From: Antedon mediterranea | Lineage: Eukaryota; Animalia; Echinodermata | Direction: 5' to 3' | NCBI RefSeq assembly: GCF_964355755.1 | Contig: NC_092676.1 | Location: 4,379,888-4,443,887, forward strand | Length of the DNA stretch: 64,000 bases | Shown: positions 37,881 to 64,000 of the stretch, piece after piece | How positions within the stretch are numbered: position 1 is the first letter of the stretch | Layout: the number at the start of each line of letters is the position of its first letter | Translations under genes and position numbers: made by a program | Notes under the pieces: model-generated | Databases searched by the model: none | Seen by the model: only the letters and a program-made list of their open reading frames with translations | What the model was told of the DNA's origin: nothing

Positions 37881-38422
37881 TATAATTTTTTTTTTCTCTC
37901 TTTGGTTTGGTGTGTGCCTCTCTTCATATACATATACATAAGTAAATAAGGGTTAGTACACTACCAGTGTCTAACTAATACTCCTGTTATATTCCCAATA
38001 TTCATTTTCTCATTTAGAATGTTCAATTCTTGCAAACATTTTTAAACAATTACGTTACCTTCAATTATTAGAATATTGTTATGTGTTATGATATGGACTT
38101 TGTTCTGAAATAAAAGTGAATTGAATTGAATTTCATTTAGCCTTTGTTCTAAAAAACCTTAGATAATAATCAATAGTACAATAGTCAATTCACATTCATT
38201 ACTGTTTATCTTAAATCTATATGTAATTGCTTATTCGAACAAAACAATTAAATATTAATATCAACTACTAACCAAAGTAATACACCTGGTGAACTGATTT
38301 ATCTAAATTATTTAAAACTCTTTTGCAACAATACTAAAAGAAACAATATTATGTCAAACGTTGAGATGACTTTGGGAGATAAAGTTTACTACGCACATCA
38401 CGGTACTGAATTGCGTAAGAAG

Positions 38423-38498
38423 ATGTTTGTCTTTAAAGTGGTAATAATATTGGTGGAGTTATCGTTTTCTAGTTGTGCTGATGTTGGTTCAAATGCCG
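38423..38498 (+). CDS. Signal-peptide exon of SRCR-LRR gene
   Basis: [25 protein letters not shown] then G|gtatga phase-1 donor; an in-frame upstream ATG at 38351 is also possible. Confidence 0.6.
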
Positions 38499-44400: not shown

Positions 44401-47400
44401 GTATTACCACATACAATTGTTACGTCACACTTTATAAGATTAGGCTGGTTTTAATCGCCAGACGTCACTTCCATTTTGTATGCGTATTATCACATACGAT
44501 TGTTACGTCACACTTTATAAGATTAGGCTGGCTTTAATCGCCGGACATCACTTCCATTTTGTATGCGTATTATCACATACGATTGTTACGTCACACTTTA
44601 TAAGATTAGGCTGGTTTTAATCACCGGACATCGCTTCAATTTTGTATGCGTATTATCACATACGATTGTTACGTCACACTTTATAAGATCTGACTGGTTT
44701 TAATCGCCGGACATCGCTTCAATTTTGTATGCGTATTATCACATACGATTGTTACGTCACACTTTAAAATATTTGAATGGTTTTGATCGCCGGACATCAC
44801 TTCAATTTTGTATGCGTATTATCACATACTATTGTTACGTCACACTTTATAAGATTTGACTGGTTTTAATCGCCGGACATCGCTTCAATTTTGTATGCGT
44901 ATTATCACATACGATTGTTACGTCACACTTTATTAGATTTGACTGGTTTTAATCGCCGGACATCGCTTCCATTTTGTATGCGTATTATCACATACGATTG
45001 TTACGTCACACTTTATAAGATTTGACTGGTTTTGATCGCCGGACATCACTTCAATTTTGTATGCGTATTATCACATACTATTGTTACGTCACACTTTATA
45101 AGATTTGACTGGTTTTAATCGCCGGACATCGCTTCAATTTTGTATGCGTATTATCACATACGATTGTTACGTCACACTTTATAAGATTTGACTGGTTTTA
45201 ATCGCCGGACATCGCGTCCATTTTGTATGCGTATTATCACATACGATTGTTACGTCACACTTTATAAGAATTGACTGATTTTAATCGCCGGACATCGACT
45301 CCATTTTGTATGCGTATTATCACATACGATTGTTACGTCACACTTTATAAGATTTGACTGGTTTTAATCGCCGGATATCACTTCCATTCTGTATGCGTAT
45401 TATCACATACGATTGTTACGTCACACTTTATAAGATTTGACTGGTTTTAATCGCCGGACATCGCTTCAATTTTGTATGCGTATTATCACATACGATTGTT
45501 ACGTCACACTTTATAAGATCTGACTGGTTTTAATCGCCGGACATCGCTTCAATTTTGTATGCGTATTATCACATACGATTGTTACGTCACACTTTAAAAT
45601 ATTTTAATGGTTTTGATCGCCGGACATCACTTCAATTTTGTATGCGTATTATCACATACTATTGTTACGTCACACTTTATAAGATTTGACTGGTTTTAAT
45701 CGCCGGACATCGCTTCAATTTTGTATGCGTATTATCACATACGATTGTTACGTCACACTTTATTAGATTTGACTGGTTTTAATCGCCGGACATCGCTTCC
45801 ATTTTGTATGCGTATTATCACATACGATTGTTACGTCACACTTTATAAGATTTGACTGGTTTTGATCGCCGGACATCACTTCAATTTTGTATGCGTTTTA
45901 TCACATACTATTGTTACGTCACACTTTATAAGATTTGACTGGTTTTAATCGCCGGACATCGCTTCAATTTTGTATGCGTATTATCACATACGATTGTTAC
46001 GTCACACTTTATAAGATTTGACTGGTTTTAATCGCCGGACATCGCGTCCATTTTGTATGCGTATTATCACATACGATTGTTACGTCACACTTTATAAGAA
46101 TTGACTGATTTTAATCGCCGGACATCGACTCCATTTTGTATGCGTATTATCACATACGATTGTTACGTCACACTTTATAAGATTTGACTAGTTTTGATCG
46201 CCGGACATCACTTCCATTTTGTATGCTTATCATCACATACGATTGTTACGTCACACTTTATAATATTTGACTGGTTTTGATCGCCGGACATCGCTTCCAT
46301 TTTGTATGCGTATTATCACATACGATTGTTACGTCACACATTATAAGATTTGACTGGTTTTAATCGCCGGACATCGCCTCCATTTTGTATGCGTATTATC
46401 ACATACGATTGCTACGTCACATTTTATAAGATTTGACTGGTCTTGATCGCCGGACATCGCTTCAATTTTGTATGCGTATTATCACATACGATTGCTACGT
46501 CACACTTTATAAGATATGACTGGTTTTAATCGCCGGACATCACTTCCATTGTGTATGCGTATTATCACATACGATTGTTACGTCACACTTTATAAGATTT
46601 GACTGGTTTTAATCGCCGGACATCACTTCCATTTTGTGTTCGTATTATCACATACGATTGTTACGTCACACTTTATAAGATTTGAATGGTTTTGATCGCC
46701 GGACATCACTTCCATTCTGTATGCGTATTATCACAAACGATTGCTACGTCACACTTTATAAGATTTGAATGGTTTTGATCGCCGGACATCGCTTCCATTT
46801 TGTATGCGTATTATCACATACGATTGTTACGTCACACTTTATAAGATTTGACTGGTTTTGATCGCCGGACATCACTTCAATTTTGTATGCGTATTATCAC
46901 ATACGATTGCTACGTCCACTTTATAAGATTTGACTGGTTTTAATCGCCGGACATCACTTCCATTGTGTATGCGTATTATCACATACGATTGTTACGTCAC
47001 ACTTTATAAGATTTGACTGGTTTTAATCGCCGGACATCGCTTCCATTTTGTATGCGTATTATCACATACGATTGTTACGTCACACTTTATAAGATTTGAC
47101 TGGTTTTAATCGCCGGACATCGCTTCAATTTTGTATGCGTATTATCACATACGATTGTTACGTCACACTTTATAAGATTTGAAATGGTTTTGATCGCCGG
47201 ACATCACTTCAATTTTGTATGCGTATTATCACATACGATTGTTACGTCACACTTTATAAGATTTGACTGGTTTTAATCGCCGGACATCACTTCAATTTTC
47301 TATGCGTATTATCATATACCATTGTTACGTCACACTTTATAAGATTTGACTGGTTTTGATCACCGGACATCACTTCCATTGTGTATGCGTATTATCACAT

Positions 47401-50400
47401 ACGATTGCTACGTCACACTTTATAAGATTTGACTGGTTTTAATCGCCGGACATCACTTCAATGTTGCATGCGTATTATCACATACGATTGTTATGTCACA
47501 CTTTATAAGATTTGACTGGTTTTGATCGCCGGACATAGCTTCAATTTTGTATGCGTATTATCACATACGATTGTTACGTCACACTTTAAAAGATTTGACT
47601 GGTTTTAATCGCCGGACATCGCTTCAATTTTGTATGCGTATTATCACATACGATTGTTACGTCACACTTTATAAGATTTGACTGGTTTTAATCGCCGGAC
47701 ATCACTTCCATTCTGTATGCGTATTATCACATACGATTGTTACGTCACACTTTATAAGATCTGACTGGTTTTAATCGCCGGACATCGCTTCAATTTTGTA
47801 TGCGTATTATCACATACGATTGTTACCTTCACACTTTATAAGATTTGACTGGTTTTGAACACCGGACATCACTTCCATTTTGTATGCGTATTATCACATA
47901 CGATTGTTACGTCACACTTTATAAGATTTGACTGGTTTTGATCACCGGACATCACTTCCATTTTGTATGCGTATTATCACATATGATTGTTACGTCACAC
48001 TTTATAAGTTTTGACTGGTTTTGATCGCCGGACATCACTTCAATTTTGTATGCGTATTATCACATACTATTGTTACGTCACACTTTATAAGATTTGACTG
48101 GTTTTAATCGCCGGACATCGCTTCAATTTTGTATGCGTATTATCACATACGATTGTTACGTCACACTTTATAAGATTTGACTGGTTTTAATCGCCGGACA
48201 TCGCTTCCATTTTGTATGCGTATTATCACATACGATTGTTACGTCACACTTTATAAGATTTGACTGATTTTAATCGCCGGACATCGCCTCCATTTTGTAT
48301 GCGTATTATCACATACAATTGTTACGTCACACTTTATAAGATTTGACTAGTTTTGATCGCCGGACATCACTTCCATTTTGTATGCGTATCATCACATACG
48401 ATTGTTACGTCACACTTTATAATATTCGACTGGTTTTGATCGCCGGACATCGCTTCCATTTTGTATGCGTATTATCACATACGATTGTTACGTCACACAT
48501 TATAAGATTTGACTGGTTTTAATCGCCGGACATCGCCTCCATTTTGTATGCCTATTATAACATACGATTGCTACGTCTCATTTTATAAGGTTTGACTGGT
48601 CTTGATCGCCGGACATCGCTTCAATTTTGTATGCGTATTATCACATACGATTGCTACGTCACACTTTATAAGATATGACTGGTTTTAATCGCCGGACATC
48701 GCTTCCATTTTGTATGCGTATTATCACACATGATTGTTACGTCACACTTTATAAGATTTGACTGGTTTTGATCGCCGGACATCACTTCAATTTTGTATGC
48801 GTATTATCACATACGATTGTTACGTCACACTTTAAAAGATTTGACTGGTTTTAATCGCCGGACATCGCTTCAATTTTGTATGCGTATTATCACATACGAT
48901 TGTTACGTCACACTTTATAAGATTTGACTGGTTTTAATCGCCGGACATCACTTCCATTCTGTATGCGTATTATCACATACGATTGTTACGTCACACTTTA
49001 TAAGATCTGACTGGTTTTAATCGCCGGACATCGCTTCAATTTTGTATGCGTATTATCACATACGATTGCTACGTCACACTTTATAAGATATGACTGGTTT
49101 TAATCGCCGGACATCGCTTCCATTTTGTATGCGTATTATCACACACGATTGTTACGTCACACTTTATAAGATTTGACTGGTTTTGATCGCCGGAAAATGT
49201 CTTTTTTTTTCATATTTTCGTTCATTGCCACCATTCACACTTTGTATCCATGTCCCAATTATATTACTCATTAAATGTTAAAATAAAAACGTTAAGAAAT
49301 TTCAAGTTGCTTCTCATCTTATAAAATACTAGGCAGTTTGTCACAGTTGGAAAACAGAACCAGTTATTTTTTTATTTAGTTGCAATCTCAAAATCATAAT
49401 TTGGTTAAGAAATTTATTATCCATTTACACATTTTCATTCATCATTTCATTTTATATCTGTTCATTTTATATCTGTTCATTTTATATCTGTTCATTTTAT
49501 ATCTGTTCATTTTATATCTGTTCATTTTATATCTGTTCATTTTATATCTGTTCATTTTATATCTGTTCATTTTATATCTGTTCATTTTATATCTGTTCAT
49601 TTTATATCTGTTCATTTTATATCTGTTCATTTTATATCTGTTCATTTTATATCTGTTCATTTTATATCTGTTCATTTTATATCTGTTCATTTTATATCTG
49701 TTCATTTTATATCTGTTCATTTTATATCTGTTTATTTTAGTTCATTCAATTTTTACAAAACAGTAGACATAAATGTTAAAAGGTACCAGAAAATAATAAA
49801 TAATAATGAAGATAATGTTATTTAGTGATGAAAGCTTAAAATGTTAAAAATGTTTCTATGGGCAGATATTATCTCATATTAAGATATACCTCATCATTTA
49901 AATATCCTTTATATTGAACAGGTTTTAAATTTAGGAATAAACTGTTTAATAGCAGTAATTAATGATACTATATTAGGTACCCTTACAATGGACGGGCGCC
50001 ATCTTATGATTATTTTAAGGTTCGGGAATCAAAAAGATAGTACAGTAATATAATGTAATGTCCTGAGATACTTGTGTCAGATTTACATCAGCTATTCAAA
50101 TAGACTTAACAAGAGTATAGCTTCACAGTGAGAGATATATCAATATAAAGAACTGATTTTAACTTGTACATTTGTTTCATTTAGTAAACATTAGACTTGT
50201 GAATGGCAACAATTTCTATGAGGGGCGAGTTGAAGTTTACGATGGCACAGAATGGGGTACAATATGTGATAATGGCTGGGACATCAACGACGCTCAAGTT
50301 GTATGTCGACAATTAAGACTAGGACCAGCTATCCAAGCTCCAGGGCAAGCTCATTTTGGTCAAGGGACTGGTCCGATTATGCTTGATGATGTTCAATGTT

Positions 50401-53400
50401 CAGGAACTGAGACATCTATCACAGACTGTCCTAATAATGGAATGAGGGTACACAATTGTGAACATTCTGAGGATGCTAGTGTTATTTGTGGTAGGTAAAG
50501 TAGTAACTGTAAAAAGGATTAACACAGAAAACAACAACACTGTAAGGCCAAGACAACTTTTTTAACTAGGAAATGTTTATCCCAGTTGAAAAGGAAAATC
50601 AATTTTGTTTTGTTCATAAGCTAATCTTTTTAATATTTTTGTTTATTTCCACCATTTAAATTTTTATTCACGTCCCAGTTATATTCATTAAATGTTAAAA
50701 TAAAAACGTCAAGAAATTTCAAGTTGCTACTCATTTTATAAAATAATGGGCAGTTTGTCGGAGTTGGAAAACAGAACCAGTTGTAATTTTTATTTGGTTG
50801 CAATCTCAAAATCATATTTGTATGCGTATTATCACATACGATTGTTATGTCGCACTTTATAAGATTTATAGATGACAAATTTCGTTTTTGTAAAAGCACA
50901 AGTTAACGGAGTACTTACTCGAACGTTTCGATCTCTATCAGAGATCCTTCTCAACTGACTGCGGAGTGTTAATGCAGCTTGGTCATTCTTGACGTCATCT
51001 GTTGATGACGTTGTACGCCTCCGGTTGTAGGTTGGAGGTTGTGCGGGGCTCGGCCAGGTGATGTGTCTATCAAATCATTGTACAAATGCGAGAGTTCGTG
51101 GGCTCCAGTGTCCCGGTTCATGGTCTTCTCTTTATTTCTCCTTATATGTAATGATTCTCTAATCTGTCTGTCTTTGCGTTTAGGCTCTTTGGTTAAGATG
51201 GTAGCCTCCCAGTTCGGTACATGATTGTGTTTTATGACATGTTCTGTAATGGCAGATTTGTGTATGATCGAAGATGTGGATGTTCTGGAGGCCCTAGTCA
51301 TTACTCCCCCCGTGTTTGTTGTAACATCTTTTTTGTGATCATTAATTCGTGTTTGTAATGCCCTCCCTGTTTCCCCAATGTAAACTTGTGGACAGTTGCG
51401 GCAGGTGACTTCGTAGATTACTCCACATGTATCCATCTTCTCGATTTTATCTTTTGGGTGGACGAGGCTATTCTTGATTTTATTTTGGGGTAGGAAATAG
51501 GTTCCGACATTGTGATAGGAGAGAGTGCGTCGTATTCTTTCTGCCATTCCTTTATAAGATTTGACTGGTTTTAATCGCCGGACATCACTTCAATTTTGTA
51601 TGCGTATTATCACATAGGATTGTTACGTCACACTTTATAAGATTAGGCTGGTTTTAATCGCCGGACATCGCTTCCATTTTGTATGCGTATTACCACATAC
51701 AATTGTTACGTCACACTTTATAAGATTAGGCTGGTTTTAATCGCCAGACGTCACTTCCATTTTGTATGCGTATTATCACATACGATTGTTACGTCACACT
51801 TTATAAGATTAGGCTGATTTTAATCGCCAGACGTCACTTCCATTTTGTATGCGTATTATCACATACGATTGTTACGTCACACTTTATAAGATTAGGCTGG
51901 TTTTAATCGACGGACATCGCTTCCATTTTGTATGCGTATTATCACATACGATTGTTACGTCGCACTTTATAAGATTTGACTGGTTTTGATCGCCGGACAT
52001 CACTTCCATTTTGTATGCGTATTATCACATACGATTGTTACGTCACACTTTATAAGATTTGACTGGTTTTAATCGCCGGACATCGCTTCCATTTTCGTTG
52101 CTTATTATTACTAACCCTTGATACGTCACACTTTGTAATATTTGGCTGGTTTTGATCGCCGGACATCGCTTCCATTTTGTATGCGTATTATCACATACGA
52201 TTGTCTTTATAAGATTTGGCTGGTTCTGATCGCCGGACATCACTTCCATTTCCGTTGCATAGTATCACATACGATTGTTACGTAGCACTTTATAAGATTA
52301 GGTAGGTTTTAATCGCCGGACATCGCTTCCATTTTCGTTGCATAGTATACATACGATTGTTACGTCACACTTTATAAGATTTGGCAGGTTTTGATAGGCG
52401 GACATCGCCTCCATTTTCGTTGCATAGTATCACATACGATTGTTACGTATAGCACTTTATAAGATTAGGTAGGTTTTGATCGCCAGTCATCGCTTCCATT
52501 TCCGTTGCATAGTATCACATACGATTGTTACGTCACACTTTATAAGATTAGGTAGGTTTTGATCGCCGGACATCACTTCCATTTTCGTTGCATAGTATAC
52601 ACACGATTGTTATGTCGCACTTTATAAGATTTGACTGGTTTTAATCGCCGGATATCACTTCCATTTTGTATACGTATTATCACATACGATTGTTACGTCA
52701 CATTTTATAAGATTCGGTAGGTTTTGATCGGCGAACATCACTTCCATTTTCGTTGCATAGTATCACATATGATTTTTACGTCACACTTTATAAGATTTGG
52801 CTGGTTTTGATCGTCGGACATCGCTTCCATTTTGTATGCGTATTATCACATACGACTGTTACGTCACACTTTATAAGATTTGACTGGTTTTGATCGCCGG
52901 ACATCCCTTACATTCTGTATGCATATGATCACATACGATTGTTACGTAACACTAAGATTCGGCAGGTTTTGATCTCTGCGCATCACTTTCATTTTCGTTG
53001 CATAGTATCACATACGATTACTATTTTATCTAATTGTCGCATTTGATAATTTAAAGATTATAAGCAGTAATTACTATAATTAAGTAATAATAATTTAATT
53101 TTAGGCTTCAGTAAACATTTTCCGCAAACTATATATTTACTTATTTGTAGGGCAGAATATTATTACCCCTCACTTTAAGAATACCGTGCAAAAGTACTAC
53201 TACTACTGCACCACTACCACCCCTACCACCACTACTACTAACATTCAGTAGGATTAATAGCAGTATACATTTAAATAAAGAAATGTTTTAAACTATATTG
53301 TAATTGTTGTTATGCAGACATTAGACTTGTGGATGGCAGCAATATTTATGAGGGGCGAGTTGAAGTTTACGATGGTACAGAATGGGGTACAATATGTGAT

Positions 53401-56400
53401 GATGACTGGGACAATACACACACACAATACAAACTTCGAATTCAAATTCATTTATTGCAACTGAGTAAACATTGTTGAACTTACAAAAGTACTGGTAAAA
53501 CATTAATAAATATGAAAAATACAAATTCACATACATGAAAAATACATCAACATATTTACAAAGGCAAAAGTAAATTATATAGTAATCTAATAGTTATTTT
53601 TTATTTATTTATTTTGGTTCAAGTTCCGGTACATTTATTTATCATAATTTAATATATATTATACAGTAATAAAGTACAGGAGGAGTGTTATTTATCTAAT
53701 TGTCATTATTTGATAATTTAAAGATGATAACAGTAATTAATATAATTAATTAATATTACATTTATAAAGAAACTTGTACATTTTTTTAATTTTAATAGTA
53801 AACATTAGACTTGTGGATGGCAGCAATATTTATGATGGGCGAGTTGAAGTTTACGATGGTACAGAATGGGGTACAATATGTGATGATGACTGGGACATTA
53901 ACAACGCTCAGGTTGTATGTCAACAATTAAGACTAGGACAAGCTATCCAAGCTCCAGGGCAAGCTCATTTTGGTCAAGGGACTGGTCCGATTATGCTTGA
54001 TAATGTTCGGTGTTCAGGAAATGAGACATCCATCACAGACTGTCCTAATAGAGGAATGAGGGTACACGATTGTGGACATTCTGAGGATGCTAGTGTTGTT
54101 TGTGGTAGGTAAAGTAGAAACTGTATAAAAAGGATCACTAAATACAGACAACAACAATACTCTAAGGCCAACACACTTTTTAAACTACTGGGGCGGATCC
54201 AGAGGGGGGGTCCACGGGGTCCGGACCCCCCCCTAAATTTTAAGGGTGCCCTTTTTTTAGAGGTTCAATATTGTATTCGTGTGACATATTTGTGTGTATA
54301 TTAGTATGCACAGAGTAGGCTACACTAACCCCAAAAATAAAAACAGAAATTTATCACAATGAGCGCGATGTTAAAGTTACGGCGGCCGATCAAAGAGCAT
54401 CGTGAGAGGTGGTGACGCGTGATGATCTCTACTTAAACTTCTAAAAATAGATCGTTTCACATACTACAGAGGGCGCATGTAAACTTTTTACGATTCAACT
54501 CCGCGTACGTTACCATGCGCGCTATGTCATTGACGCGATTATTTGTCCATTGGTAAACACATTTTTATGTATTATTATTCTGAAAATAATTGAACTGTAA
54601 ACATAATTCTTTTGAGTATTTGTTTATTTACATATCATTCCATCAGATCAACTATTTTTTATTTCCATTACATCCAACCAAACATGTAAAAAATGTAGTT
54701 AAAATATCGTACTATCTAGCGCGTACGACCATACGCGGTAGATTGTTTACTCAAAAATCATCGAACGGTCCTTACATTATTCAGGGAGTTGTAAAATCAA
54801 CTCCCTGCACTAGTCAACCTTGTTTTTGTAGTTGAGCCTCTCATGACCTGAGATTTTTTTGTCTTCCTACGCCAAGATAATATAGTTCTACAAGCCATGT
54901 GCTTTTTTCTCTGAGAAATATTTATTATAAGTGCCAAAAAAATCGATATGAAGCCTTTATTATTCAAATCTTTTAAAGAAAAATCACACATACCATAAAG
55001 AAGGTTCATTTATTTCATTTTTTAAACAATATTTGTGAAAATTACGTGAGGCTCAACTACAAAACCACCATTTTGTGATATAATGTCATCGTAAGCCAAT
55101 CAAAGCTGAGCTTTCCCGCGAACGCTTCCCGCGTTCGGCAGAACTCACGGTTGAATGATTTTGGATTCTGGCTATTTGATTGGTGGACGCGAATCACCCA
55201 CAGCGGAATGTTTTCTCTCTCTCGCGTGTACCAAGAAGTCACGTGATCTCTCTGTACTGAACGGTACGACACAAATTTAGAGCAATGAATTTGTACGAAT
55301 TCCGTTAAATAAACAACTCTATATATTTTATAAACATTTAATAACATATTTTATTGATATTTCCAATGTTGATATATAAAAGAAATTACTATAAAACGTA
55401 ATTATATGTAATTATTTTAGCGAAAAATGGCGCAATTTGTTTACAACTTTCGTGGCTAAAAACGATCATTTTCGGCAATGTTTTAGACCCTATATTTCGA
55501 AAACTACAACAAGTCAGATTTTCGTAATTCTTTCTTTATTGGAATATTGAAACAAAATACCAACAGATAATGTTTAAATTGGTTGAAAAATAACAACTTT
55601 TAATTTTGCATCGTTATCCCTGCTAATAAAGTGTCATTTCCGGCGAACTAGAAAGGTGCCATTTATCATGGATTTTGCGTGCGAGAGTGCCATTTCCGGC
55701 CATCTAAGTGTGTTCTGTAACAAAATTCGCTTCGCCACAACCCCCACCATGGGGGGGCTGTGGCTCAAATACTCAATGTCTGATGTGCCCTTTTTATCGC
55801 TGGACCCCCCCTCTTAAAAATGTCTGGATCCGCCCCAGAACTAGGAAATGTCAATCTGTTTATCTCAGTTTAAAAGGAAAATGTTTTTTTTTCATATTTT
55901 TGTTCATTGCCACCATTCACACTTTGTGTCCTTTGTATCCTTACTTTGTGAGTGGTCGAGCGGTTAAGACAGTCGAACCGTAATTACGTAGCCATAACAT
56001 CGGCAGGGGTTCGAGGCTCACTCACTCCATGGTTGTGGTGGTAGAACGAGTCTTCTCGGATAAGGTCTATAAACCGTAGGTACAGTGTACACATCTAGCT
56101 CGTGTGCACTTTAAATAACCTAGTACATCTTTCGAGACGAGTAGGGGATTACCCCGGTGTATTAGTACATCACAGCCACTGATCACCAACTGGGCCCTCT
56201 GGGAGACCAGTCTTTGACTGAAGAGGTTACCCAGTATAAATATATATTTCAATCAATCAATCAATCCACGTCCCAGTTATATTACTCATTAAATGTTAAA
56301 TAAAAACGTTCAGCAATTTCAAGCTGTTTCTCATCTTATAAAATAATGGGCAGTTTGTCAGAGTTGGAAAACAGAACCAGTTTATTTTTTATTTGGTTGC

Positions 56401-59400
56401 AATCTTAAAATCATAATTTGTTTAAGAAATGTATTATCCATTTACACATATTCATTCATCATTTAATTTTATATCTGTTTATTTCAGTTCATTTAATTTT
56501 TACAAAACAGTAGACATAAATGTAAAAAGGTACCAGAAAATAATAAACTAATAATGAAGATAATGTTATTTAGTGATGAAAGCTTAAATGTTAAAAATAT
56601 TTCTAAGGGCAGATATTATCTCATATTAAGATATACCTCATCGTTTAATCATCCTCTATTGAACAGGTTTTAAATTTAGGAATAAACTGTTTAATAGCAG
56701 TAATCAATAATACTATATTAGGTACCCTTACAATGGACGGGCGCCATCTTATGATTATTTTAAGGTTCAGGAATCAAAAACATATTACAGTAATATAATG
56801 TAATGTCTTGAGATACTTGTGTCAGATTTACATCAGCTATTCAAATAGACTTAACGAGAGTATAGCTTCACAGTGAGAGATATATCAATATAAAGAACTG
56901 ATTTTAACTTGTACATTTGTTTCATTTAGTAAACATTAGACTTGTGAATGGCAGCAATATCTATGAGGGACGAGTTGAAGTTTACGATGGCACAGAATGG
57001 GGTACAATATGTGATAATGTCTGGGACATCAACGACGCTCAAGTTGTATGTCGACAATTAAGACTAGGACCAGCTATCCAAGCTCCAAGACAAGCTTATT
57101 TTGGTCAAGGGACTGGTCCGATTATGCTTGATGATGTTCAGTGTTCAGGAACTGAGACATCCATCACAGACTGTCCTAATAGAGGAATGAGGGTACACTA
57201 TTGTGGACATTATGAGGATGCCAGTGTTATTTGTCAATGTAAGGAAAATTTGACACTAAATACAAACTTCAGTACTAACAGACGATATTACAATACACTA
57301 TTGACTAAGAGGGAGTGTTTTGTTTTATAAATTATATAAAAATAAGTTCTATTTTCAATAGTTTTATCCATTTAGAGAAAAAAGAGGTTAAAGCTACATT
57401 TGGCGTCATTTATTCTCCTTATATAATATTCCATTGTTTAACACGACGAAATGAACAATACCATTAAATTAAACAGTGTAATAATGAAGCTTAAATATAA
57501 TATGTTTTTATTTCACCTGTATCGAATTATAAGAATTTATGTTCATCTTTAAAATACTCATTGTTATCACACACCACCAGTATTCATCATTATCGTAGTG
57601 TTCTACTATGTAAGATAGAAATAAAGTACTTGGTAATGTTGTTGTTTTACATGAATTACTGAATTGTATTATTTACTGCTTGTGTTTTTTTTAAACAAAA
57701 TCATTATAGTAGGATGCCCAACATATTGCACCTGTAATGTCCAGAAGTGTAACACAGCAGATTGTTATAATAACACTAGATGTACTCAATGGAATGCAAA
57801 TATACATACAGAGCTTGTTGAGTACAATGTGTATGATCCAATAACAAGATTGTAAGTAGAACATTTTTTGTCGATATTTTGAAATCTAACTAAATTTATG
57901 TCATACTGTAAGCAAAATCTACAATGTATATTTCTTTGATAATAGGTCCATGCTATTTATACAGCAGGATCATGATAATATTGAACAAAGGGGGAGTGGG
58001 TGGATTTTGTTAATGTGGAACTACTGGTCACCTTGTGGCGGTCTACAGTATATTTAGGTCGTTTCAATCAGTTTACAGGCTCATCATTAATCTGGTCAAT
58101 TTTCGTATACGACATTTTACGTAAGAATGTGATAGTAGACTAAAAATAACATTTTTTATTTTAACATAGTATATTGTGACATCACTAAAGTACATACAAT
58201 AGAGTACATGCAGTATAACTATTGTATAATGTACAGGAATGTAGACATTTCAACATTTGAGGTGACAGAAAAACTAAAACAATTTAAAAACAGCTTGGAT
58301 ATTGTGATTTACTTACACTGTTCATTCTGGGATTTGAGCTATAACCAAATTAAGTACATGTTGGTTAAACAATGATAATGGTTTAATATTATATTGATTT
58401 CACAATTTGTGATCTTATAAAAATAACTTTAAAAATCAAGTTTTTTGTTCATCCACCATGTAATGACCTTTATTTTTTTTATATATAATAATTCAAAATC
58501 AATTTTTATTGTAAATATCACAATATAAATATAATTATATTTATATATATCATCATTACAAATGTTACTAAGTAATTAAAATTTGTTTATGTATTAATTT
58601 TGTCTTATGAGAAAAAATGTTTCAAAATATAAATATATATTTTATATTTTGACATTAAAATGTTTATGCAATACAGTGAATGCATTGTTGGATCAATTGT
58701 AATATTGGACTAATATGTTATACATTATGACTATTTACAGTAAAAAGAATTTTAAAATCAACATTTTTTAATTTATCAAATTATTCCAAATAATTTTAAA
58801 ATAAACATTTTTAAAATGTATCCACCATGATTGAACTATTTATTTTGGTAAGATCTAACAATTGAAACTAAATCTGTATTACATATAGATAATACATTTA
58901 TTATATGGTTGCTAACGAACAATTTGAAATTGGTGTAGAAATTTTGTTTTAATAAAATAAGTTATCAAAATAAATTTACCACATTTTTATTTTAACATAG
59001 TATATTTTGACATCACTAAAGTACATACAATATAGTACATGCAATATAACTACTGTATAATGTAGCCTACAGGAATGTAGACATTTCAACATTTGAGGTG
59101 ACAGAAAAACTAAAATAATTTAAAAACAGCTTGGATATTGTGATTTACTTATACTGTGCATTCTTTTTACTTTTAAGGGATTTGAGCGGTAACCAATTAA
59201 GTACATTACCAGCCAATGCATTTGCTGGTTTGACAGCATTGGAAACACTGTAAGTGTATTGCTTATGTTTGCTTACTTTTACTAATTTGGTTTTAATTTA
59301 GAAATTAAATTACAAATTATTTTACATTGTTGGTTTTCAAATTCAAAATTAATCTGAAATTTTAAAATTTCACAATATAAATATTATTATAATTATTGTT

Positions 59401-62400
59401 ATGCTAAATAATTAGTATTTGTTTATGTAGTGATTTTGTTTTATGAGAATAAAAATCATCACAATATAAATATATATTATATATTTTTACATCATTAAAA
59501 TGTTGATACAATACGGTGCATGTATTGTAGGTTCAATTGTAATAATGGACTTATATGTACCTTATGATTTCATGATTATTTACAATAACACCAATTTAAA
59601 AAGCAACAATTTTTTAATTTTTTCACCATGATTGAACTATTTATTTTTGTAAGACATAACAATTGAAACTGAATCTGTATTACATATAGATAATACATTT
59701 ATTATATGGTTGCTATCAAACAATTTGAATTTGTTGACATTTTGTTTTCAGAAAATATGTTAATCAAATAAATTTACAACATTTTTATTTTAACATAGTA
59801 TATTTTGACATCACTAAAGTACATACAATAGAGTACATGCAGTATAACTACTGTATAATGTACAGGAATGTAGACATTTCAACATTTGAGGTGACAGAAA
59901 AAACTAAAATAATTTAAAAACAGCTTGGATATTGTGATTTACTTATACTGTGCATTCTTTTTACTTTTAAGGGATTTGAGCGGTAACCAATTAAGTACAT
60001 TACCAGCCAATGCATTTGCTGGTTTGACAGCATTGGAAACACTGTAAGTGTATTGCTTATGTTTGCTTACTTTTACTAATTTGGTTTTAATTTAGAAATT
60101 AAATTACAAATTATTTTACATTGTTGGTTTTCAAATTCAAAATTAATCTGAAATTTTAAAATTTCACAATATAAATATTATTATAATTATTGTTATGCTA
60201 AATAATTAGTATTTGTTTATGTAGTGATTTTGTTTTATGAGAATAAAAATCATCACAATATAAATATATATTATATATTTTTACATCATTAAAATGTTGA
60301 TACAATACGGTGCATGTATTGTAGGTTCAATTGTAATAATGGACTTATATGTACCTTATGATTTCATGATTATTTACAATAACACCAATTTAAAAAGCAA
60401 CAATTTTTTAATTTTTTCACCATGATTGAACTATTTATTTTTGTAAGACATAACAATTGAAACTGAATCTGTATTACATATAGATAATACATTTATTATA
60501 TGGTTGCTATCAAACAATTTGAATTTGTTGACATTTTGTTTTCAGAAAATATGTTAATCAAATAAATTTACAACATTTTTATTTTAACATAGTATATTTT
60601 GACATCACTAAAGTACATACAATAGAGTACATGCAGTATAACTACTGTATAATGTACAGGAATGTAGACATTTCAACATTTGAGGTGACAGAAAAAATAA
60701 AATAATTTAAAAACAGCTTGGATATTGTGATTTACTTATACTGTGCATTCTTTTTACTTTTAAGGTCTTTGTACAGTAACCAAATAAGTACATTACAAGC
60801 CAATGCATTTGCTGGTTTGACAGCATTGGAATACCTGTAAGTGTATTGCTTATGTTTGCTTACTTTTAACAATTTGGTTTAAATTTAGAAATTAAATTAT
60901 AAATTATTTTACATTGTTGGTTAAACAATGATAATGGATTAATATTATTCTATAATTTCACAATTTGTGACCTTATAAAAAATATCTTTATAAATCACTA
61001 GTTTTAGTTCATCCACCATGAATGAACTTTATTTTTGTGTAATACATAATAATTTTAAAAATAATATTAATTGTAAAATTTCACAATATAAATATCATTA
61101 GAATGATTGTTATACTAAATAATTAGTATTTGTTTATGTAGTGATTTTGTTTTATGATAATACAAATTATTAAAATATAAATATATATTTTATATTTTGA
61201 CATCATTAAAATGTTGATACAATACAATGCATGTATTGTAGGATCAATTGTAATAATGGACTAATAATATGCATCAACATTTTTAAAATGTATCCACCAT
61301 GATTGAACTATTTATTTGTGTAAGATACTAAATATGTATTACATATTAGATAATACATTTATTGCATGGTTGCTAACAAACAATTTGAATTTGCTGTAAA
61401 CATTTCCTTTTGTGAAAATAAGTCATTTAAATATATTTACCACATTTTTATTTTAACATAGTATATTTTGTACATCACTAAAGTACATACAATAGAGTAC
61501 ATGCAGTATAACTACTGTATAATGTACAGGAATGTAGACATTTCAACATTTGAGGTGACAGAAAAACTAAAATAATTTAAAAACAGCTTGGATATTGTGA
61601 TTTACTTATACTGTGCATTCTTTTTACTTTTAAGGGATTTGAGAGAAAACAAAATAAGTACATTACCAGCCAATGTATTTGCTGGTTTGACAGCATTGAA
61701 ATACCTGTAAGTATATTGCTTATGTTTGCAAACTTTTATCAATTTGGTTTTAATTTAGAAATTAAATTATAAATTATTTTATATTGTTGGTTAAACAATG
61801 ATAATGGAATAATGGATTATATGTTAAAATAAAAATGTGATATATTTTAATAACTTATTTTGTTAAAATAAAATTTCTACAACAAATTAAAAATTGTTTG
61901 ATAGCAACCATATAATAAATGTATTATCTATATATAATACAGATTCAGTTTCTATTGTTATATCTTACAAAAATAAATAGTTCAATCATGGCGGATAAAT
62001 TTAAACAATGATAATGGATTAAAATTATTCTATAATTTCACAATTTGTGATCTTATAAAAAATATCTTAAAAATCACTAGTTTTTAGTTCATCCACCATG
62101 AATGAACTTTATTTTTGTGTAATACATAATAATTTTAAAAATAATATTAATTGTAAAATTTCACAATATAAATATCATTATAATGATTGTTATACTAAAT
62201 AATTAGTATTTGTTTATGTAGTGATTTTGTTTTATGAGAATAAAAATTATTAAAATATAAATATATATTTTATATTTTGACATCAGTAAAATGTTGATAC
62301 AATACAATGCATGTATTGTAGGATCAATTGTAATAATGGATTAATAATATGTATCAACATTTTTAAAATGTATCCACCATGATTGAACTATTTATTTTTG

Positions 62401-63695
62401 TAAGATATAACAAAAATGAATATTTATTACATATTAGATAATACATTTATTATATGGTTGCTAACAAACAATTTGAATTTATTGTAGACATTTTATTTTA
62501 ATGAAATAAGTTATTAAAATATACATTTTTACTTTAACATAGTATATTTTGACATCCTAAAGTACATACAATAGAGTACATGCAGTATAACTACTGTATA
62601 ATGTACAGGAATGTAGACATTTCAACATTTGAGGTGACAGAAAAATTAAAATAATTTTAAAACAGCTTGGATATTGTGATTTACTTATACTGTGCATTCT
62701 TTTTACTTTTAAGGTCTTTGTACAGTAACCAAATAAGTACATTACCAGCCAATGTATTTGCTGATTTGACAGCATTGAAAACACTGTAAGTGTATTGCTT
62801 ATGTTTGCTTACTTTTACCAATTTGGTTTTAATTTAGAAAATTAAATGAAAAATTGTTTTACATTGTTGGTTAAACAATGATAATGGATTAATATTATTA
62901 TATAATTTCACAATTTGTGATCTTATAAAAAAACTTTAAAAATCAATCGTTTTTTGCTCATCCAACATTAACAAACTTTATTTTTTTGAATAATATTATA
63001 ATAATTCAAAATACATTTTTATTGTAACTGTCACAATATAAATATTATTATAACAAATGTTACTAAATAATTAGTATTTGTTTATTTAGTGATTTTGTTT
63101 TAAGAGAATAAAAATTATTAAAATATAAATATATATTTTATATTTTGACATTAAAATATTGATACAATACAGTGCATGTATTGTAGGTTCGATTGTAATA
63201 AGGGAGTAATAATATGTACTTTATGATTTCATGATTATTTATAGTAAAAATAATTTTAAAGTGAACATTTTAAAAATGTATTCACCATGATTGAACTATT
63301 TATTTTTGTAAGATCTAACAATTGAAACTGAATCTGTATTACATATAGATAACACATTTATTATATGGTTGCTATCAAACAATTTGAATTTGTTGTAGAC
63401 ATTATATTTTAATAAAATATACATTAAAATATACATTTTTATTTTAACATAATATATTTTGACATAACTAAAGTACATACAATAGAGTACATGCAGTATA
63501 ACTACTGTATAATGTACAGGAATGTAGACATTTCAACATTTGAGGTGACAGAAAAACTAAAATAATTTAAAAACAGCTTGGATATTGTGATTTACTTATA
63601 CTGTGCATTTTTTTACTTTTAAGGTCTTTGTACGATAACCAAATAAGTACATTACAAGCCAATGCATTTGCTGGTTTGACAGCATTGGAAACACT
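38423..63695 (+). CDS. Multi-domain SRCR + LRR receptor-like protein (signal peptide - SRCRx3 - LRRNT - LRR x>=6), 3' end beyond window
   Basis: Phase-compatible exon chain: 38423-38498 (signal peptide, ends phase 1), 50185-50490, 53799-54104, 56930-57238 (SRCR, 1-1), 57710-57851 (LRRNT, 1-2), 59178-59249, 59972-60043, 60765-60836, 61635-61706, 62714-62785, 63624-63695 (LRR, 2-2). Joining into one transcript is inferred from phase and order. Confidence 0.82.
39570..49194. repeat. 83-bp satellite array, ~9.6 kb (~115 copies), intronic
   Basis: tatcacatacgattgttacgtcacactttataagatttgactggtttt(a/g)atcgccggacatc(a/g)cttc(a/c)attttgtatgcgtat; period 83 (tgttacg at 39601 and 39684). Confidence 0.99.
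49445..49735. repeat. 15-bp perfect tandem repeat x ~19
   Basis: ttcattttatatctg. Confidence 0.97.
50185..50490 (+). CDS. SRCR domain exon 1
   Basis: tttag|TA...G|gtaggt, 306 nt; [66 protein letters not shown] (6-Cys group A SRCR). Confidence 0.95.
50868..51549 (-). mobile_element. 5'-truncated Penelope-like retroelement (GIY-YIG endonuclease end), inserted in a satellite unit
   Basis: ORF 50969-51547(-): [42 protein letters not shown]....R.IRESLHI....MNRDTG; 13-bp duplication CTTTATAAGATTT at 50855-50867 and 51550-51562. Confidence 0.92.
51550..53020. repeat. Second array of the 83-bp satellite (~17 copies, more diverged toward the 3' end)
   Basis: Same unit as 39570-49194; variants tttcgttgcatagtatc and attaggtagg toward the 3' end. 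Confidence 0.97.
53318..53413 (+). pseudogene. Truncated SRCR pseudo-exon
   Basis: tatgcag|ACATTAGACTTGTG...; [31 protein letters not shown], then breaks off into (CA)n and a reverse-oriented AATAAA/TGAATT retro-tail-like sequence. Confidence 0.85.
53799..54104 (+). CDS. SRCR domain exon 2
   Basis: aatag|TA...G|gtaggt, 306 nt, complete SRCR consensus. Confidence 0.95.
54188..55838. mobile_element. Non-autonomous DNA transposon (hAT-like ends, 5-bp TSD)
   Basis: TIR CTGGGGCGGATCCAG...CTGGATCCGCCCCAG; AACTA duplicated at 54183-54187 and 55839-55843; empty site tttaactaggaaatg in the paralogous intron at ~50561. Confidence 0.88.
55946..56265 (+). mobile_element. tRNA-derived Deu/Nin-domain SINE with (CAAT)n tail
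   Basis: A-box tggtcgagcgg, B-box-like ggttcgagg, tcggataagg..taaaccgtagg..ttcgagacgagtagggg..accccggtgt domain; absent from the paralogous intron at ~49245. Confidence 0.82.
56930..57238 (+). CDS. SRCR domain exon 3
   Basis: tttag|TA...T|gtaagg, 309 nt, complete SRCR consensus. Confidence 0.95.
57710..57851 (+). CDS. LRR N-terminal cap (LRRNT) exon
   Basis: tatag|TAGGATGCCCA...TT|gtaagt; [24 protein letters not shown]...ITRL (CPxxCxC cap), phase 1-2. Confidence 0.8.
58329..58359 (+). pseudogene. Decayed LRR exon cassette
   Basis: GGGATTTGAGCTATAACCAAATTAAGTACAT (DLSYNQ..) preceded by the conserved intron block; the polypyrimidine tract/AG and the 3' half of the exon plus donor are deleted. 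Confidence 0.85.
59178..59249 (+). CDS. LRR exon 1 (24 aa)
   Basis: ttttaag|G...CT|gtaagt; [24 protein letters not shown]. Confidence 0.93.
59972..60043 (+). CDS. LRR exon 2 (24 aa)
   Basis: Identical to LRR exon 1: [24 protein letters not shown]. Confidence 0.9.
60765..60836 (+). CDS. LRR exon 3 (24 aa)
   Basis: [24 protein letters not shown], 72 nt, phase 2-2. Confidence 0.93.
61635..61706 (+). CDS. LRR exon 4 (24 aa)
   Basis: [24 protein letters not shown], 72 nt, phase 2-2. Confidence 0.93.
62714..62785 (+). CDS. LRR exon 5 (24 aa)
   Basis: [24 protein letters not shown], 72 nt, phase 2-2. Confidence 0.93.
63624..63695 (+). CDS. LRR exon 6 (24 aa)
   Basis: [24 protein letters not shown], 72 nt, phase 2-2. 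Confidence 0.93.
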
Positions 63696-64000
63696 GTAAG
63701 TGTATTGCTTATGTTTAATTTTTTGCTCATCCAACATTAACAAATTTTATTTTTTTGAATAATATGTAATTCAAAATAAATTTTTATTGTAACTGTCACA
63801 AATATAAATATTATTATAACTAATGTTACTAAATAATTAGTATTTGTTTATGTAGTGATTTTGTTTTATGAGAATAAAAATCATCAAAATATAAATATAT
63901 ATTATATAGTTTTACATCATTAAAATGTTGATACAATACATTGCATGTATTGTAGGATAAATTGTAATAATGGACTAATAATATGTACCTTATGATTCCA

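What the first reader, a model, noticed from the sequence alone, without database searches (positions are those of the whole stretch)
58148..63760. Introns flanking the LRR exons are more conserved than the exons' variable codons, and the exons are recombinant mosaics
Seen: the ~190 bp upstream of each acceptor and ~30 bp after each donor are nearly identical in all units, while the first four codons switch wholesale (GATTTGAGCGGT / TCTTTGTACAGT / GATTTGAGAGAA / TCTTTGTACGAT). All four combinations occur for the 5' type vs codon 23 (DL+T, DL+Y, SLY+T, SLY+Y) and for codons 22/23 (ET, EY, KY, KT). Simple duplication and divergence cannot give this without recurrent mutation. Inference: frequent gene conversion or unequal crossover within the invariant exon core (AGTACATTAC..GCCAATG..TTTGCTG.TTTGACAGCATTG) shuffles half-modules. 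The conserved intron block may act as a homology arm or a regulatory/recombination signal.
Basis: partly seen in the sequence, partly recalled or inferred. Interest (0 to 1): 0.72.

Follow-up and report, generated by a model that had tools for sequence, protein, structure and literature searches.

The report
Recombining LRR exon array, feather star
In a feather-star-like animal, six near-identical exon-plus-intron units each encode one leucine-rich repeat; recombination has mixed the exons, and the DNA just before each exon stays almost the same while the predicted binding-face residues differ, a pattern already known from likely recognition proteins of algae, fungi and flatworms.

Summary
Six 72-bp phase-2 LRR exons lie in 0.8-1.1-kb tandem units. 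The 190 bp before each acceptor vary at 7 of 187 columns, against 99 of 377 in the rest of the intron. The exons vary at 17 of 72 nt, all in amino-acid-changing codons and mostly at predicted exposed positions. Both four-combination patterns are real; point mutation alone reproduced the multi-nucleotide one in at most 3 of 40,000 simulations. Exchanges also fall in the block, in mid-intron and between codons 22 and 23, not only in the exon core. The block shows no RNA family or unusual fold, descends partly from an old intron duplication, and survives beside a dead exon. Best reading: ordinary concerted evolution (unequal crossover and conversion) with diversifying selection, in a likely SRCR-LRR recognition protein; the nearest named proteins are from Antedon. 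Precedents exist (Ectocarpus ROCO, fungal het-e, SmPoMuc), and this scan noted the same pattern in fungal windows. No reads, RNA or whole genome were examined, so assembly chimeras and a functional block remain untested.

The parts
38366..38498 (+). likely first coding exon (hydrophobic, signal-peptide-like stretch), ending in a phase-1 donor
   Evidence: reading frame matches the N-terminus of Antedon protein P0087; joining to the later exons is inferred
50185..50490 (+). SRCR exon 1
   Evidence: Pfam SRCR E 5.8e-33; 90-92% identical to P0013/P0087 repeats
53318..53410 (+). truncated SRCR copy (first third only; end approximate)
   Evidence: P0087 residues 44-93 match 53314-53463 at 98%
53799..54104 (+). 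SRCR exon 2
   Evidence: Pfam SRCR E 1.1e-32
56930..57238 (+). SRCR exon 3, phase-1 donor
   Evidence: Pfam SRCR E 2.2e-32; 94% identical to Antedon P0013 and P0087
57710..57851 (+). cysteine-rich exon, phase 1 to phase 2; inferred N-terminal cap of the LRR array
   Evidence: open frame and splice sites; no Pfam family and no convincing homologue, so the cap label is inference from CPxxCxC spacing and position
58148..58359 (+). dead unit 0: conserved block plus a 30-nt exon remnant; acceptor deleted, rest of the exon deleted
   Evidence: alignments; its block differs from live blocks at 5-8 of about 176 sites
58984..59177 (+). conserved block before LRR exon 1 (carries a 5-nt insertion)
59178..59249 (+). 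LRR exon 1, [23 protein letters not shown]
   Evidence: Pfam LRR_8 E 1.5e-4, below the curated cut-off for so short a piece
59105..60765 (+). youngest tandem duplication: 59105-59972 equals 59899-60765 except one homopolymer base
59781..59971 (+). conserved block before LRR exon 2
59972..60043 (+). LRR exon 2, identical to exon 1
60575..60764 (+). conserved block before LRR exon 3
60765..60836 (+). LRR exon 3, [23 protein letters not shown]
61444..61634 (+). conserved block before LRR exon 4
61635..61706 (+). LRR exon 4, [23 protein letters not shown]
61820..62005 (-). inverted copy, inside intron 4, of the intron segment just upstream of the block
   Evidence: about 87% identical to that segment in other units
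62525..62713 (+). conserved block before LRR exon 5
62714..62785 (+). LRR exon 5, [23 protein letters not shown]
62960..63572 (+). old internal duplication that makes up most of the intron (62960-63260 against 63280-63572); the second copy runs into the block
   Evidence: 78% identity over 263 aligned bases, 68 gap columns
63435..63623 (+). conserved block before LRR exon 6
63624..63695 (+). LRR exon 6, [23 protein letters not shown]; the array runs on to the window end

Best explanation
This is a tandem array of one-exon-per-repeat LRR units, likely the second half of a secreted or surface SRCR-LRR protein, in which recombination between misaligned units has mixed the exons and likely keeps the DNA beside each exon uniform, while selection likely keeps the predicted binding-face residues different. 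Misaligned units pair best where they are already nearly identical and free of large indels: the 190-bp block, the invariant exon core and, less so, the first 85 bp after the donor. Crossovers and conversion tracts there keep that zone uniform, which favours further pairing there; the indel-rich mid-intron exchanges less and drifts apart (inferred). Because every exon is 72 bp and phase 2 at both ends, crossovers in the block or intron add, remove or reorder whole repeats in frame, and crossovers inside the exon make hybrids. Each concave beta-strand is split over a splice junction (codons 22-23 of one exon, codons 1-6 of the next), so both kinds of exchange create new surfaces. Shown: exon structure, diversity profile, need for recombination, amino-acid-only variation. 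Inferred: selection, recognition function, SRCR-LRR joining, passive origin of the block.
For: Recombination; a near-perfect 0.87-kb duplication whose left boundary lies in the block. The uniform zone includes the exon's silent sites: 0 variable third positions in 19 codons (13.3 silent sites), p 0.017 if they behaved like mid-intron. Variation is skewed to exposed codons: 13 of 18 nt against 4 of 51, Fisher p 4e-7; 6 of 6 exposed codons vary against 4 of 17 others (the exposed positions of the LxxLxLxxNxL motif are recalled, the register agrees with lamprey VLR repeats). Mean pN 0.150 against pS 0.032, all of the pS arising inside amino-acid-changing codons. The first 80 nt of the block-side duplicate has a mid-intron paralogue of equal GC that varies at 20 of 79 columns against 3 of 78, so position, not base make-up, tracks uniformity. 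The block persists beside the dead exon. SRCR exons 1 and 3 show the same flank-more-alike-than-exon pattern with unrelated flanking DNA: 2.5% and 4.1% in two upstream 200-bp stretches against 5.8% in the exon. Precedents.
Against: The uniform zone is lopsided (pi 0.015 upstream, 0.058 downstream) and has an abrupt 5' edge: 3 of 47 columns vary at -188..-142, 19 of 47 at -235..-189. A step fits slightly better than a smooth decay (log-likelihood -246.1 against -248.3, 3 parameters each). The 47 columns before the acceptor are invariant although they abut the two deeply different codon-1 types, where linked differences would be expected; splice-site constraint explains only part. All 7 variable block columns are singletons, which fits purifying selection as well as recent homogenisation. 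Only 5 distinct exons from one assembly were seen. The simulation has no selection for particular residues. Both Antedon gene models end after the last SRCR, without LRRs.
Confidence: 0.72

Rival explanations
1. The 190-bp block is a functional intronic element under purifying selection, most likely a splicing element that helps the short exons to be recognised or chosen in combinations; recombination in the exons is real but separate.
For: Sharp 5' edge and asymmetry; only singleton variants; all exons are symmetric phase 2, so any could be skipped in frame; ROCO LRR exons of brown algae are alternatively spliced (PMC11378527, passages).
Against: No Rfam family near its gathering score (2 weak matches, E 2.7 and 3.5). 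RNA fold of one copy z -1.06. No long complementary partner in 49000-64000 beyond A/T-rich words and the inverted insert. Part of it is a duplicate of ordinary mid-intron DNA. It is still about 96-97% identical beside an exon that has lost its acceptor. Silent exon sites are uniform too.
Confidence: 0.14
2. The block is a dedicated recombination hotspot or signal that drives programmed, possibly somatic, shuffling of LRR exons, as in lamprey VLR assembly.
For: One crossover maps to the block; the inverted insert in intron 4 ends about 20 bp inside the block's 5' edge; the repeats resemble VLR repeats; somatic shuffling was proposed for Ectocarpus ROCO genes (PMC3341825, passages).
Against: Other boundaries fall in exons and mid-intron. 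The exons are ordinary spliced exons in one orientation, not donor cassettes beside an incomplete gene. No signal motif or structure was found. The ROCO proposal has not been confirmed (PMC11378527).
Confidence: 0.06
3. The mosaics or the uniform block are assembly or polishing artefacts of a collapsed repeat.
For: Units 1 and 2 differ by one homopolymer base over about 0.87 kb, as a false duplication would. No reads were examined.
Against: The other units differ throughout their mid-introns by many substitutions and indels, so reads of ordinary length can be placed. The mosaic boundaries are only tens of bases apart. All six exons keep frame and splice sites, and their differences are only amino-acid-changing, at exposed codons. 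The window also holds a 9.6-kb satellite with 93% matches between copies, which suggests a long-read assembly (inference). Dropping exon 2 leaves every four-gamete pattern in place.
Confidence: 0.05
4. No exchange inside exons: strong selection drove the same residues repeatedly by point mutation.
For: Codons 14 and 22 differ by single transitions that could recur.
Against: Codon 23 (ACA/TAC) or codon 1 (GAT/TCT) would have to recur with the same codon in every tree; null frequency at most 3 of 40,000.
Confidence: 0.03

Closest known systems
Ectocarpus and kelp ROCO LRR domains (Zambounis et al., PMC3341825; Teng et al., PMC11378527; passages read)
   Same: One LRR per 72-nt phase-2 exon; intragenic recombination; inactivated exons left in introns; selected sites on the concave face.
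   Different: Intracellular GTPases of brown algae. Here an animal gene with a likely signal peptide and SRCR domains. The passages read did not describe a uniform pre-acceptor block or mosaics inside an exon.
Highly conserved WD repeats of Podospora het-d/het-e (Paoletti et al., PMC1805685; abstract read)
   Same: Repeats under concerted evolution and reshuffling, with a few surface residues per repeat under diversifying selection.
   Different: WD40 repeats in fungal allorecognition proteins; exchange between family members was shown there and is untested here.
SmPoMuc exon-2 genomic repeats of Schistosoma mansoni (PMC2576457; passages read)
   Same: About 1-kb exon-plus-intron repeats, over 93% identical; conversion reported as restricted to intron sequence while exons stay different through selection. 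The same paper cites spider silk genes with introns more homogenised than exons (second-hand).
   Different: Mucin repeats separated by polypurine tracts; no such tract was seen here, and only part of the intron is uniform.
[quoted passage not shown]
   Same: Tandem one-repeat exons with phase-2 introns; unequal crossing over proposed.
   Different: 90-bp exons, ciliate, thousands of genes, retrotransposon association.
Lamprey variable lymphocyte receptors (PDB 2o6q, 6bxa)
   Same: 24-residue repeats of similar consensus (best profile match E 4.5e-7); variation at the strand positions (recalled).
   Different: VLRs are assembled somatically from donor cassettes (as summarised in PMC10199209). 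Here the repeats are germline spliced exons, and nothing indicates somatic assembly.
Antedon mediterranea DMBT1-like SRCR models XP_071956195.1 and XP_071956197.1 (P0087, P0013)
   Same: 94% identity to SRCR exon 3; P0087 shares the leader exon and the truncated SRCR copy, so it likely comes from the corresponding locus.
   Different: More SRCR copies; both models end after the last SRCR without LRRs.

Membership tests
One-exon-per-repeat LRR arrays (ROCO type) | each LRR on its own 72-nt exon with phase-2 introns | tested here: met
   6 of 6 intact exons
One-exon-per-repeat LRR arrays (ROCO type) | intragenic rearrangement of units and inactivated exons | tested here: met
   youngest duplication, dead unit 0 and inverted intron insert
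One-exon-per-repeat LRR arrays (ROCO type) | alternative splicing of LRR exons | not tested
   no transcript data examined
ROCO proteins | Roc-COR GTPase domains after the LRRs | not testable with these tools
   the gene runs off the window and no genome is held; SRCR exons upstream argue for an extracellular protein
Concerted evolution with diversifying selection (het-e type) | repeats near-identical at silent and flanking sites | tested here: met
   block pi 0.015; 0 variable third positions in 19 codons
Concerted evolution with diversifying selection (het-e type) | amino-acid variation concentrated at a few surface positions | tested here: met
   13 of 18 against 4 of 51 nt; exposed positions assigned from recalled LRR structure; no codon-model test run on 5 short recombining exons
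Concerted evolution with diversifying selection (het-e type) | repeats more alike within than between species, and exchange among family members | not testable with these tools
   no genome or second haplotype; the protein searches returned no named crinoid LRR protein
Variable lymphocyte receptors | 24-residue LRR modules of VLR-like consensus | tested here: met
   weak E-values from a 23-position profile, also matching Slitrk1 and LRRTM
Variable lymphocyte receptors | incomplete germline gene flanked by unspliced donor cassettes | tested here: not met
   in the window the repeats are in-frame spliced exons directly after the cap exon
Variable lymphocyte receptors | somatic assembly in lymphocyte-like cells | not testable with these tools
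   needs tissue or single-cell long reads
Dscam-type mutually exclusive exon clusters | selector sequences before each exon that pair with a shared docking site (recalled) | tested here: inconclusive
   exact reverse-complement search of one block against 49000-64000 gave only A/T-rich words and the inverted insert; G-U pairs and DNA beyond the window not covered
Intron-encoded small RNA (snoRNA, miRNA) | match to a curated family or unusually stable fold | tested here: not met
   (one copy each)
DMBT1-like SRCR proteins | tandem SRCR domains, one per exon | tested here: met
   3 intact exons
DMBT1-like SRCR proteins | C-terminal CUB and ZP domains (recalled) | tested here: inconclusive
   LRR exons follow instead within the window; the 3' end is unseen

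The most novel reading that the evidence does not exclude
The 190-bp block is an active cis element, a splice-choice element or recombination arm, that lets a crinoid build many SRCR-LRR receptors from one locus by combining VLR-like repeats; because each binding strand is split across a splice junction, every new exon neighbour gives a new surface. This would be a diversifying LRR receptor system in the earliest-branching echinoderm class.
Probability: 0.13. Interest if true: 0.78.

Novelty: new member of a known kind. Interest (0 to 1): 0.36.

Why it matters
It extends a known way of diversifying recognition surfaces (repeat homogenisation plus selection on a few exposed residues) to a crinoid gene that public annotation splits or misses. 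My searches for crinoid LRR or SRCR-LRR genes listed no paper on it; SRCR with LRR_1 is listed for sea urchin and Nematostella gene models (PMC2575513, supplementary table 3). The array is a clean natural test of whether uniform intron flanks come from conversion or from function: one comparison between two Antedon species decides it. If the block proved functional, it would be a candidate route to VLR-like combinatorial receptors outside jawless vertebrates.

Tried and rejected
Sequencing runs: 10 rows from 4 studies hold 0.06-0.37 of the sampled words of 56900-60100; no RNA holder listed; none was laid, so they are not used as evidence. A search with LRR exon 1 in its open frame returned 9 of 50 candidates, unnamed ENA proteins, a Capsaspora and a moth protein, at 54-74% identity over the repeat: generic LRR likeness, no crinoid protein. 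Rfam and folding gave nothing. Step against smooth decay could not be separated. Base composition as the cause of the block was rejected. A Thr-rich stretch near 53152-53248 was considered as an exon and left out for lack of a clear frame and donor. A possible 60-nt in-frame cryptic exon in unit 0 (read by eye) has a weak donor and was not pursued. The script stopped with an error after the SRCR flank table; the SRCR codon count was redone. The Dscam staggered-recombination paper (PMC2802040) is not held; I saw only its title in a reference list, whose passages report no gene conversion among Dscam exons in Daphnia. No GENECONV or standard PHI program was run; the test is my own neighbour-compatibility permutation.
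Full report
Setting. The window is A/T-rich and full of satellites. On the + strand from about 38.4 kb lies a gene with a likely leader exon (38366-38498), three intact SRCR exons (Pfam E 1e-32 to 6e-33), a truncated SRCR copy, a cysteine-rich exon (57710-57851) and an array of LRR exons that runs off the window. In the listed top 120 of 917 hits for SRCR exon 3, two Antedon mediterranea proteins stand at 94% identity and all others at 63% or less; one of them, P0087, also shares the leader and the truncated SRCR copy. The window is therefore from an Antedon-like feather star (inference from homology). Both public models end after an SRCR domain. SRCR exon 3 ends in phase 1 and the cap exon begins in phase 1 with no start of its own, 471 bp later; the cap ends in phase 2, as do all LRR exons. 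An SRCR-LRR protein is thus the simplest reading, but no transcript was seen. SRCR with LRR_1 is listed for sea urchin and Nematostella gene models (PMC2575513, supplementary table 3).

Observation. Six intact 72-bp exons start at 59178, 59972, 60765, 61635, 62714 and 63624, with introns of 721-1007 bp. The block -190..-1 has pi 0.0145, the central intron 0.122, the exon 0.119, and +1..+84 after the donor 0.058. On five non-redundant complete introns (intron 2 dropped as a duplicate of intron 1, the partial intron 6 and unit 0 dropped), 7 of 187 gap-free block columns vary against 99 of 377 elsewhere; Fisher p 3e-12, and the quietest window in 20,000 shuffles still had 17 variable columns. The contrast holds for A/T and G/C columns separately. 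So the block is real and far beyond chance; the post-donor flank is only moderately uniform, and the intron as a whole is not more conserved than the exon.

Exon variation. All 17 variable nucleotides lie in 10 codons that change the amino acid. With the junction leucine the repeat reads L-E-T-L-D-L-S-G-N-Q-L, the LxxLxLxxNxL motif; its x positions are codons 22, 23, 1, 3, 4 and 6. By established LRR structure (recalled) these line the concave face; the register agrees with lamprey VLR repeats, the best PDB matches. All 6 of these codons vary (13 of 18 nt) against 4 of the other 17 (4 of 51 nt; p 4e-7). No third position varies in the 19 codons without multi-nucleotide change (13.3 silent sites; p 0.017 at the mid-intron rate). 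Mean pN is 0.150 and pS 0.032. This is the signature expected of diversifying selection, though five short recombining exons do not allow a formal test.

Recombination. In exon-centred units, 483 of 1176 pairs of the 49 informative sites are incompatible, and neighbouring sites are far more compatible than shuffled ones (p 0.0002, the floor for 5000 permutations, at four neighbourhood sizes). That test also picks up any duplication whose ends fall inside my unit definition, so the exon was tested alone. Six of 45 pairs of variable codons show four gametes: 1-14, 1-22, 1-23, 11-23, 14-23, 22-23, which needs at least two boundaries, one between codons 1 and 14 and one between 22 and 23. The best of 15 trees for the 5 distinct exons needs codons 1 and 23 each twice. 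Simulations with mutation only, crowded into 4-10 codons, gave four gametes between two multi-nucleotide codons in 0-3 of 40,000 runs in each of 10 settings; they omit selection for given residues. Two events could suffice: a tract spanning codons 14-22 shared by E4 and E5, and an exchange separating codon 23 from the 5' type (inference).

Where exchanges fall. 59105-59972 equals 59899-60765 but for one homopolymer base: a very young duplication, or a false one, with its left end in the 3' half of the block and its right end at codon 1 of E3. In mid-intron, introns 3 and 4 are close in segments A and B (13 of 174, 5 of 163) but not in C (17 of 158); intron 6 is close to intron 5 in A (5 of 108) and to intron 1 in B (8 of 161). 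Exchanges are thus spread over the unit and not confined to the exon core.

What the block is. No Rfam family reaches its threshold; one copy folds no better than shuffles (z -1.06); no long complementary partner was found in 49000-64000; no copy lies outside the array in the window. Most of the intron is an old internal duplication (78% over 263 aligned bases) whose second copy runs into the block; the homologous 80 nt vary at 20 of 79 columns in mid-intron and 3 of 78 in the block, at equal GC (p 2e-4). The block survives beside the dead unit 0, differing at 5-8 of about 176 sites against 0-5 among live units. SRCR exons 1 and 3 show the same pattern with unrelated flanks (2.5% and 4.1% upstream, 5.8% in the exon), whereas the flank of SRCR exon 2 aligns poorly. 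These points favour passive homogenisation near exons. Against it stand the abrupt 5' edge, the asymmetry, the invariant 47 columns right beside the divergent codon 1, and singleton-only variation; a step and a smooth decay fit about equally. One assembly cannot separate conversion from purifying selection; a between-species comparison can.

Mechanism. Misaligned units most likely pair through the long indel-free zone from the block through the exon core. Crossovers and conversion there keep it uniform, change repeat number in frame, and make hybrid exons; selection on the exposed codons keeps old variants that are then reshuffled. Since codons 22-23 and the next exon's codons 1-6 form one strand, reordering whole exons also makes new surfaces. 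The source of the multi-nucleotide codon types (long retention here, or import from other loci) is unknown.

Comparison. Ectocarpus ROCO genes have 72-nt phase-2 LRR exons, intragenic recombination, dead exons and selected concave sites (PMC3341825, PMC11378527; passages). Podospora het-d/e repeats combine concerted evolution with selection on four surface residues (PMC1805685; abstract). SmPoMuc repeats have homogenised introns and distinct exons (PMC2576457; passages). Tetrahymena has 90-bp exon arrays (PMC6564038; passages). It is not a VLR: the repeats are spliced germline exons. Earlier notes of this scan describe the same pattern in two fungal windows and a related one in a sea squirt; they are unchecked and gave me the lead to the het-e paper. 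Eight paper searches (listings only) showed no paper on this crinoid locus; most subscription papers are outside the library.

Verdict. Real and well supported, a new animal example of a known mode of repeat evolution; interest 0.36. The most novel open reading, an active element for combinatorial VLR-like receptors, has about 13% odds. Left open: read support for the assembly, expression and splicing, the 3' end of the gene, and other loci.

Noticed in passing
window 39553-53019: An 83-bp satellite (116 copies at 39553-49194, about 18 more at 51550-53019) fills the predicted introns of this gene; the first array sits between the leader exon and SRCR exon 1.
   Followed up: no
window 50972-51589, minus strand: 206-aa open frame resembling the end of a Penelope-type retroelement (GIY-YIG-like 'VYIGETGR' motif; label recalled), inserted beside the satellite between SRCR exons 1 and 2.
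   Followed up: no
window 54188-55838: About 1.65-kb insertion with inverted ends (GGGGCGGATCCAGA ... TCTGGATCCGCCCC) after SRCR exon 2, likely a DNA transposon; read by eye.
   Followed up: no
window 55950-56265: Insertion with a tRNA-like head and an (AATC)n tail, likely a SINE, in the intron before SRCR exon 3 and absent from the matching intron before SRCR exon 1; read by eye.
   Followed up: no
window 53318-53463: Truncated SRCR copy that the Antedon RefSeq model P0087 also carries and annotates as coding (98% over 50 residues), so the lesion is shared with that assembly.
   Followed up: partly
window 50185-57238 against P0013 and P0087: The window has 3 intact SRCR exons; the two Antedon models have more SRCR repeats, some identical between them, which suggests copy-number change in the SRCR part too.
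   Followed up: partly
window 58329-58365: Unit 0 lost its acceptor and the rest of its exon; the larger deletion joins two copies of a 5-nt word (exon core and post-donor intron), as in microhomology-mediated deletion. Its codon 4 (TAT) is a type not seen in the live exons.
   Followed up: partly
window about 1378-21311: Scattered frames of another gene on the + strand (pieces such as [19 protein letters not shown] and EQLRLASMK) that look like a clathrin-assembly (PICALM/AP180-like) protein; label recalled, not searched.
   Followed up: no
window 25532-27326: 36-bp minisatellite, 50 copies at 97% match, with stop-free frames of over 600 codons on both strands.
   Followed up: no
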